Shown: piece by piece, positions 11,355 through 11,697 of the stretch
How positions within the stretch are numbered: position 1 is the first letter of the stretch
How the letters are laid out: each line of letters opens with the position of its first letter
Source of the DNA: Candidatus Altarchaeum sp.
Lineage (GTDB): Archaea > Altiarchaeota > Altiarchaeia > Altiarchaeales > Altiarchaeaceae
Reading direction: 5' to 3'
Assembly (NCBI GenBank): GCA_018260615.1
Contig: JAGWDQ010000002.1
Location: forward strand, 1-16,051
Length of the DNA stretch: 16,051 nt
The notes under the pieces: generated by a model
What the model saw: the letters and a program-made list of their open reading frames with translations, nothing else
Told to the model about the DNA's origin: nothing
Database searches by the model: none
Translations under genes and position numbers: made by a program

Positions 11355-11628
11355 TGAAAATCACCTCATTTTCAAAATCAATAGATTTTGTAAATCCACG
11401 AACGAAGTGAGCGGACTTCGTTCGGAAATTTAAAAAACTCCGGAGGCTGTCTAATAATTCAATTTTAACCTCGCTGTCGTAAAAACCTTCAAGGTTTTTA
11501 GGATACTAAAAATGCTCGTAGCATTTTTACTATCGCAAAAATCTGCAAGATTTTTGGGATATTCAAAAATGCTTGAAGCATTTTTGATATTGCTCGGATA
11601 TTTTCAAAATCTGTTGATTTTGAAAATC
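11355..11628. repeat. Repeat array F
   Basis: Core at 11400-11410, four hairpins at 11480-11500, 11507-11529, 11536-11556 and 11564-11586, and TTTTCAAAATC-tgtt-GATTTTGAAAA near 11601-11626. Confidence 0.9.
11399..11424. terminator. 10-bp perfect inverted repeat downstream of rpl37e (possible terminator or RNA-stabilising hairpin)
   Basis: CGAACGAAGT-gagcgg-ACTTCGTTCG, formed by two opposed core motifs. Function is inferred from position only. Confidence 0.3.
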
Positions 11629-11697
11629 ACACTGAATTTACTCGTAAAAAAGAGGCATTTCAAATTTATTTGAAATATTTAAATCGCACTATGTAGT

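What the first reader, a model, noticed from the sequence alone, without database searches (positions are those of the whole stretch)
11466..11609. A core module split exactly in its loop by a 113-bp four-hairpin block, with no target duplication
Seen: the intact 31-mer taacctcgctgt|tgctcggatattttcaaaa (reverse complement of 10-40) appears here as taacctcgctgt (11466-11477), then 113 bp, then tgctcggatattttcaaaa (11591-11609), with no base lost or duplicated (1-nt junction ambiguity). The break is in the loop of GC-TGTT-GC. Inference: a snapshot of how arrays grow, by precise insertion into hairpin loops. Lack of a target-site duplication fits single-strand HUH-type cut-and-join chemistry or loop-initiated recombination rather than DDE transposition.
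Basis: partly seen in the sequence, partly recalled or inferred. Interest (0 to 1): 0.72.

Follow-up and report, generated by a model that had tools for sequence, protein, structure and literature searches.

The report
Nested hairpin repeats in hairpin loops
A short hairpin repeat in this groundwater archaeon (Candidatus Altiarchaeum) is cleanly interrupted in its loop by two copies of a smaller hairpin repeat; this is one of dozens of such loop insertions in the genome, which show that these gene-less mobile repeats build arrays by jumping into each other's hairpin loops, by an enzyme still unknown.

Summary
The reverse complement of 10-40 is an intact 31-mer. At 11466-11609 the same 31-mer is split by exactly 113 nt that fold into four hairpins, with no base lost or gained and 1 nt of junction ambiguity.

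It is not a one-off. In this 2.2-Mb draft genome I found 329 intact cores and 41 strictly defined split cores. Removing the insert restores a canonical loop in 28 of 33 distinct cases (controls 25-30%).

The 113-nt block is a doublet of two subfamilies (80% identical) of a ~56-nt two-hairpin unit. In 21 of 29 occurrences this unit lies inside a core loop, in at least six core variants.

Core-plus-hairpin modules of ~46-48 nt also insert into loops. Of 25 paralogous filled/empty sites, 16 lie in loops, mostly just 5' of TGC or TCG.

The composite in the window has a 95% identical copy on another contig with different flanks. It therefore probably arrived here already split. Three congeneric genomes lack the whole array at this spacer.

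No target duplication is seen. No HUH, serine or matching transposase gene was found, so the proposed chemistry remains unsupported. Haloquadratum SMR-A elements are the closest known parallel. Earlier agents of this scan reported the same repeat family on other contigs of this genome.

The parts
11466..11477 (+). Left half of the host core hairpin: outer-stem 5' arm, TC, apical GC and the first three loop bases
   Evidence: Exact 12-mer; 44 copies in the genome. 23 are intact cores, 5 are followed by the two-hairpin unit and 16 are followed by another core.
11478..11533 (+). Unit A: a 56-nt two-hairpin small repeat, of the subfamily that is always first in doublets
   Evidence: nhmmer hit 1-56. 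93-98% identical to the first units at C70, C111, C26, C117 and C87, and 80% identical to unit B. Hairpins at 11477-11503 and 11507-11529.
11534..11590 (+). Unit B: a 57-nt two-hairpin small repeat, of the subfamily found alone or second in doublets
   Evidence: nhmmer best hit. 95-98% identical to single units inside other core variants at C117:26220, C148:5896, C13:12498 and C68:35055. Hairpins at 11531-11561 and 11563-11587.
11591..11600 (+). Right half of the host core hairpin: last loop base, apical GC, TC and outer-stem 3' arm
   Evidence: Exact continuation of the 31-mer. The same unit/right-half junction recurs at C56, C117, C148, C79 and C111.
11600..11627 (+). A/T-rich hairpin that completes the core-plus-hairpin module
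   Evidence: 12-bp stem in the DNA fold. 93% complementary to 11368-11395 (I12). Homology with the C70 copy ends inside its 5' arm at 11609.
10..40 (-). Intact reference copy of the 31-mer, part of a longer element cut by the contig end (1-77)
   Evidence: Exact match. About 18 genome copies share the same ~37-nt left arm.
11361..11428 (+). Neighbouring core interrupted by an inverted core-plus-hairpin module
   Evidence: Bracket parse (C2 + 11361, gap 50) and sequence reading.
11355..11680 (+). The whole hairpin array in the L37e-kinase spacer, derived in this lineage
   Evidence: The orthologous spacer is 44 nt in G001 and two CCXY01 contigs, about 20 nt in G002 and about 44 nt in G003, with no array.
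3962..4130 (-). Another split core in the window: a 151-nt gap between the two half-core words, of which about 148 nt is nested modules inserted in a TTC loop
   Evidence: C2 - 11922, gap 151. An empty form occurs 17 times elsewhere.

Best explanation
The split core is a nested insertion within a genus-specific family of gene-less mobile hairpin repeats. The host is a ~22-nt core hairpin that, with the A/T hairpin after it, forms a ~46-48-nt mobile module. Its 4-nt apical loop carries two tandem members (subfamilies A and B) of a ~56-nt two-hairpin repeat. Shown: both this unit and the core-plus-hairpin modules insert precisely into the apical loops of other hairpins of the family, usually just 5' of TGC or TCG. 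They leave no target duplication, and this produces Russian-doll arrays. Shown: the composite here has a near-identical copy elsewhere, and the whole array is absent from the same spacer in relatives. Inferred: the composite was copied into this spacer already split. Inferred, with low confidence: the chemistry is a single-strand cut-and-join on extruded or replicating hairpin DNA, similar to IS200/IS605-derived or SMR-type elements, carried out by an enzyme that is not identifiable in the assemblies.
For: Recurrence:
- 329 intact versus 41 strict split cores (33 distinct). 28 of 33 restore a canonical loop (TGTT, TCTT, TTC, TATC) once the insert is removed, against 25% and 31% in two controls. 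Junction ambiguity is mostly 0-1 nt.

The two-hairpin unit:
- 21 of 29 blocks lie directly after a left half, all in one orientation.
- The hosts span at least six core variants that differ on both arms, while the units stay 93-98% identical.
- A copy in G001 sits in a core loop in the opposite orientation.

Filled/empty paralogs for single modules:
- There are 25 distinct sites, 16 of them in predicted apical loops (control 27%).
- T is at +1 in 19 of 25 (control 36%), and TGC or TCG follows in 10 of 25 (control 2.8%).
- One module sits in only 1 of 6 copies of a TnpB element, which gives the polarity of insertion.
- A three-level nest is visible at C18:3489.

This locus and the family:
- A 95% identical composite lies at C70 with different flanks.
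- Relatives have a 20-44-nt spacer here.
- The family is restricted to the genus: 241, 49, 136 and 63 hits in four genomes and 0 in 37 others. A collection scan named the relatives as Ca. Altiarchaeum/Altarchaeum.
- The hairpin is real: the outer-stem partner bases covary in 242 of 251 intact cores across three pair types.
Against:
- No transposase that fits was found in four assemblies that are 65-87% complete. Y1_Tnp, Y2_Tnp, Resolvase and Viral_Rep were absent. One tyrosine recombinase was found in 3 of 4 genomes and one IS110 in G000 only. The Y2_Tnp and Viral_Rep searches also found nothing in any of the 14 control genomes, so those two blanks carry little weight. Multi-copy gene families other than TnpB are not transposases.
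- Many split cores are copies of a few composites, so there are fewer independent events than sites.
- Mismatched outer arms are commoner in cores split by the unit (3 of 11) than in intact cores (9 of 251). This could point to recombination between different cores.
- Some module junctions outside loops share 5 nt with the flank. This could be a short duplication or microhomology.
Confidence: 0.68

Rival explanations
1. Composite first: the long form (left half, internal hairpins, right half) is the original element, the two halves are its ends, and the short 'intact' cores are deletion derivatives.
For: The unit is rarely found outside a core (21 of 29 blocks). Within G000 it always has the same orientation. 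Composites are copied as wholes: C2 and C70, and three copies of a 163-nt composite at C111, C26 and C117.
Against: Intact cores outnumber split ones 329 to 41. Nearly identical units sit in at least six core variants whose arms differ by paired changes. Quite different inserts (core-plus-hairpin modules and a third hairpin unit) occupy the same loop position. Modules are seen entering unique sequence, namely 1 of 6 TnpB copies. A G001 copy is inverted within its host core.
Confidence: 0.1
2. No dedicated enzyme: hairpin loops are break or stalling points. Repair or template switching then copies neighbouring repeat modules into the break, guided by short microhomology.
For: No matching transposase was found. 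Junction overlaps of 1-5 nt are frequent. Tandem 21-, 34-, 42- and 47-nt duplications typical of slippage coexist in the arrays. Mismatched outer arms occur in some split cores.
Against: Inserted modules have the same fixed ends at unrelated targets. The same 39-nt module lies in a core loop and in a different repeat. Loops are restored without loss in 28 of 33 cases, which is unusual for break repair. A sequence rule applies at the site, with TGC or TCG after it (40% versus 2.8%).
Confidence: 0.17
3. Chance resemblance or assembly artefact at this locus.
For: Short-read assemblies can collapse or mis-join short repeats. The contig starts inside a repeat copy.
Against: The match consists of an exact 12-mer plus an exact 19-mer. 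The same composite sits on another contig in a different context. The site lies 4 kb or more from the contig ends, between single-copy genes.
Confidence: 0.03

Closest known systems
SMR-A small mobile repeats of Haloquadratum walsbyi (Dyall-Smith et al. 2011, PMC3119063; read)
   Same: Both are transposase-free archaeal repeats that make no target duplication. Both have a strong preference for inserting into the palindromes of other mobile elements. Both are abundant, and in both the mode of mobilisation is unknown.
   Different: SMR-A elements are about 110 bp, have prominent inverted terminal repeats and target near-terminal palindromes of PATEs and IS605-type transposons. Here the units are 46-57 nt, made of two hairpins with at most weak terminal symmetry. 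They target apical loops of their own family and nest recursively. I saw no sequence resemblance but did not test this with a formal comparison.
IS200/IS605 transposons and their gene-less derivatives (PATEs); established model of single-strand 'peel and paste' by a Y1 HUH TnpA
   Same: Two subterminal hairpins, no inverted terminal repeats, no target duplication, and insertion next to a short specific sequence.
   Different: No Y1 TnpA was found in four genomes of the genus. The conserved target bases lie 3' of the element as I oriented it. The TnpB element of this genome has terminal inverted repeats and 7-8-bp flank repeats, and its ends are unrelated to the cores.
REP/BIME repeats with RAYT transposases of bacteria (established knowledge)
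   Same: Short imperfect extragenic palindromes with covarying stems, clustered in mosaic arrays between genes.
   Different: No RAYT (Y1 family) gene was found. There is no conserved tetranucleotide head of the REP kind. Nesting inside loops is not the described way in which BIMEs are built.
Classical MITEs (DDE-mobilised); Ca. Altiarchaeum hamiconexum is reported to have the highest MITE density among archaea (PMC11602168)
   Same: Small, non-coding, abundant and intergenic, and they nest in one another.
   Different: They lack the 10-15-bp terminal inverted repeats and the 2-10-bp target duplication that define MITEs.

Membership tests
IS200/IS605-type (including PATE-like derivatives) | A Y1 HUH transposase (PF01797) encoded in the genome to act in trans | tested here: not met
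   0 matches in G000-G003, while 6 of 14 control genomes gave matches. The assemblies are 65-87% complete, so absence is not proven.
IS200/IS605-type (including PATE-like derivatives) | Subterminal hairpins at both ends and no terminal inverted repeats | tested here: met
   The unit consists of two hairpins, and the module of a core hairpin plus an A/T hairpin.
IS200/IS605-type (including PATE-like derivatives) | No target-site duplication | tested here: met
   Canonical loops are restored in 28 of 33 distinct split cores, with ambiguity mostly 0-1 nt.
IS200/IS605-type (including PATE-like derivatives) | Insertion next to a fixed tetra- or pentanucleotide, in one orientation | tested here: inconclusive
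   T at +1 in 19 of 25 sites and TGC or TCG in 10 of 25. The motif is short and the sites are partly related. The unit has one orientation in G000 but the opposite one in a G001 copy.
SMR-A-like small mobile repeats | No transposase, no target duplication, insertion into palindromes of other mobile elements | tested here: met
   definition taken from PMC3119063.
SMR-A-like small mobile repeats | About 110 bp with prominent inverted terminal repeats | tested here: not met
   Units are 56-57 nt (113 nt only as a doublet). Their ends share only a few bases in inverted order.
MITE (DDE-mobilised) | Terminal inverted repeats of 10 bp or more and a 2-10-bp target duplication | tested here: not met
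   Neither is present at the loop insertions. A 5-nt flank match is seen at only a few non-loop sites.
REP/RAYT | A RAYT gene flanked by REPs | tested here: not met
   No PF01797 match.
Integron-type cassette or attC site | A tyrosine recombinase with crossover in a conserved site, so that sites stay whole after insertion | tested here: inconclusive
   One tyrosine recombinase was found in 3 of 4 genomes. The junctions of the unit share a five-base motif around the joining point (T, a purine, T, then a pyrimidine and G) with the loop target. However, junction overlap is 0-1 nt, too short for a 6-8-bp staggered exchange.

The most novel reading that the evidence does not exclude
These repeats may be moved by an undescribed mechanism that recognises the single-stranded apical loop of a DNA hairpin and joins a two-hairpin element into it without duplication. 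The enzyme would be either a new family or a host enzyme put to this use. Hairpin arrays would then grow recursively from the inside, which is a mode of transposon targeting and array growth not described for any family.
Probability: 0.2. Interest if true: 0.8.

Novelty: new variant of a known kind. Interest (0 to 1): 0.55.

Why it matters
Altiarchaeum is reported to be the archaeon most densely packed with miniature mobile repeats (PMC11602168), yet I found no paper that describes how they are built or move.

This locus and its genome-wide counterparts give a clean rule: insertion goes into hairpin loops, next to TGC or TCG, with no duplication. The rule explains the nested architecture of the arrays. 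It also suggests that these hairpins are extruded or single-stranded in vivo.

The rule narrows the search for the responsible enzyme, which no known transposase family in the assemblies accounts for. The same puzzle has stood since 2011 for the SMR elements of Haloquadratum.

Tried and rejected
The single metagenome scan returned only loci at 86% identity or less, and these have the short, array-free spacer.
- Rfam gave no family match in the window.
- The promoter/terminator scan gave nothing above shuffles, with no terminator-like sites.
- Target duplication was rejected for loop insertions. A 3-nt duplication model for the unit fails because the flanking triplets differ among copies.
- Pairing of the two half-cores is not predicted in the minimum-energy fold of the composite. 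I therefore do not claim that the split core still folds.
- Enzyme candidates: Y1_Tnp, Y2_Tnp, Resolvase and Viral_Rep gave no match. For Y2_Tnp and Viral_Rep the controls did not ring either, so those two blanks are weak. Rep_1 gave sub-threshold hits that turned out to be a rolling-circle Rep-like gene on small contigs of G002 and G003. It has no homolog in G000, and those contigs carry no cores.
- TnpB element ends are unrelated to the cores.
- Multi-copy gene families of G000 are ATPase_2, TPR, Schlafen/AlbA_2, RadC, PIN and others, not transposases.
- Strict orientation of the unit was rejected as evidence for a strand-specific mechanism once the inverted G001 copy was seen.

Full report
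**Observation**

The window is a whole 16,051-bp contig (C2) of a 2.23-Mb, 148-contig, 33% GC draft genome.
- The reverse complement of 10-40 is a 31-mer.
- Its first 12 nt recur at 11466-11477 and its last 19 nt at 11591-11609, separated by exactly 113 nt.
- Nothing is lost or duplicated, and one T can be assigned to either side.
- As single-stranded DNA the 113 nt fold into four hairpins (z = -10).
- The 31-mer occurs 20 times exactly in the genome, the left half 44 times and the right half 26 times. From base composition I expect about 0.1 copies of the 12-mer.

**What the core is**

The core is a ~22-nt hairpin.
- It has a 5-bp outer stem with a conserved A-A mismatch, a TC/TC internal loop, a 2-bp apical stem (GC/GC, AC/GT or AT/AT) and a 3-4-nt loop.
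- A structure-only scan finds 927 such hairpins against about 460 in shuffles.
- The second outer-stem base matches its partner in 242 of 251 intact cores, using three pair types. The pairing is therefore maintained.
- Each core is normally followed by an A/T-rich hairpin. Together they make a ~46-48-nt module.
- The family is restricted to the genus: 241, 49, 136 and 63 pattern hits in G000-G003, none in 37 other genomes of the class, and none for the reversed control pattern.
- A scan of species-representative genomes names the carriers as Candidatus Altiarchaeum/Altarchaeum and Altiarchaeales MAGs. It also returned three stray contigs.

**What the 113 nt are**

The block is two tandem copies of a ~56-nt two-hairpin unit. 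The two copies belong to different subfamilies and are 80% identical to each other.
- Unit A (11478-11533) is 93-98% identical to the first units of five other doublets.
- Unit B (11534-11590) is 95-98% identical to units that occur singly.

An nhmmer search finds 29 blocks of the unit in the genome.
- 21 lie directly after a left half-core, all in the same orientation.
- Their hosts represent at least six core variants that differ on both arms.
- The other eight blocks are one solitary copy, one weak partial hit, one ambiguous case and five blocks within three copies of a larger repeat.

Nearly identical units in different, internally consistent core variants argue for repeated entry into core loops rather than a single ancient composite. 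In G001 a unit sits in a core loop in the opposite orientation.

**Generality of loop insertion**

A bracket-style parse with 13 left and 10 right core words gives 329 intact cores and 71 split candidates, of which 41 are strict (33 distinct sequences).
- The inserts are the two-hairpin unit, a third hairpin unit, or, most often, other core-plus-hairpin modules, some nested two or three deep.
- One example is C18:3489. There a module lies in the loop of the A/T hairpin of a module that itself lies in a core loop.
- Removing the insert restores a canonical loop in 28 of 33 cases, against 25% for random genomic segments and 31% for shuffled inserts. Junction ambiguity is 0 nt in 12 cases, 1 nt in 10, 2 nt in 3 and 4 nt in 3.
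- Right halves rarely stand alone.

I also searched for paralogous empty sites of single modules.
- There are 25 distinct filled/empty pairs with ambiguity of 2 nt or less.
- 16 lie in a predicted apical loop (control 27%).
- T follows the insertion point in 19 of 25 (control 36%), and TGC or TCG in 10 of 25 (control 2.8%).
- One module sits in frame in one of six 92-96% identical copies of a TnpB element, which shows the direction of the change.

**This locus**

The composite from 11463 to 11609 is 95% identical to C70:50515-50661. The flanks on both sides differ, and the C70 copy carries the left arm of a longer element that the window copy lacks. The split core was therefore most likely copied here as a unit, which makes the locus a product rather than a snapshot.

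The whole array is lineage-specific. The L37e-kinase spacer is 44 nt in G001 and in two CCXY01 contigs, about 20 nt in G002 and about 44 nt in G003. The window holds further split cores at 11361-11428 and at 3962-4130 on the minus strand.

**Mechanism**

The anatomy is as follows:
- two-hairpin elements without inverted ends;
- no duplication;
- a short target motif exposed in loops.

This resembles single-strand transposition of the IS200/IS605 type and the SMR-A elements of Haloquadratum. SMR-A elements also make no duplication, target palindromes of other elements and have no known enzyme (PMC3119063).

Gene content does not support a specific chemistry.
- Y1_Tnp, Y2_Tnp, Resolvase and Viral_Rep were not found in four genomes. 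For Y2_Tnp and Viral_Rep the control genomes also gave nothing, so those two blanks are weak.
- One tyrosine recombinase is present in three of the four genomes, and one IS110 in G000 only.
- A rolling-circle Rep-like gene lies on small contigs of G002 and G003, with no link to the repeats.
- No multi-copy gene family other than TnpB looks like a transposase.
- The assemblies are 65-87% complete.

I therefore hold nested insertion as well supported (0.68) and the cut-and-join chemistry as an inference. A repair or template-switch origin (0.17) and a composite-first history (0.10) are not excluded.

**Novelty**

A survey paper notes that Ca. Altiarchaeum hamiconexum has the highest MITE density among archaea (PMC11602168). 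Full-text searches found no description of these modules or of loop insertion. Earlier agents of this scan described the same family as nested mobile hairpin repeats on other contigs of this genome. This report adds the loop and TGC/TCG target rule, the A/B doublet, the paralogous composite and the empty orthologous spacer.

Noticed in passing
G000 contigs C13, C24, C119, C70, C69, C42 (loci L030-L032 and others): The six-copy TnpB element has ~15-bp terminal inverted repeats and 7-8-bp direct repeats of the flank in at least four copies. This is unlike classical IS200/IS605 elements. Copy C42 carries a 48-nt core-plus-hairpin module in frame within tnpB.
   Followed up: partly
L042 (G002:C130, 4013 bp) and L043 (G003:C189): Small contigs, one with a 91-bp terminal overlap (so circular), encode a 364-371-aa protein with rolling-circle Rep motifs (histidine-hydrophobic-histidine and a tyrosine motif). 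They may be plasmids or viruses of Altiarchaeum. G000 has no homolog.
   Followed up: partly
L066 (Patescibacteria MAG contig) and L085 (Gammaproteobacteria MAG contig): The core motif occurs once in each, inside a similar 9-bp stem context that the two bacterial contigs share. L061, binned as Acetofilamentum, has 33% GC and looks like a mis-binned Altiarchaeum contig.
   Followed up: no
window 1-77 (minus strand): A truncated copy of a roughly 150-nt element. Its ~37-nt left arm precedes the intact 31-mer in about 18 genome copies, often at contig ends, and one copy lies next to a tRNA gene.
   Followed up: partly
window 1032-1115: Four tandem 21-nt core hairpins without A/T hairpins between them. 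Their outer stems differ by paired changes. Paralogs with 42 nt fewer exist.
   Followed up: partly
window 4744-4847: The last ~100 nt of the ORF at 4212-4847 run through hairpin modules. Pfam gives no match for this ORF.
   Followed up: no
G000 cores split by the two-hairpin unit: Outer arms are mismatched in 3 of 11 cores split by the unit, against 9 of 251 intact cores. Pairing may no longer be maintained once a core is split, or the halves may come from different cores.
   Followed up: partly
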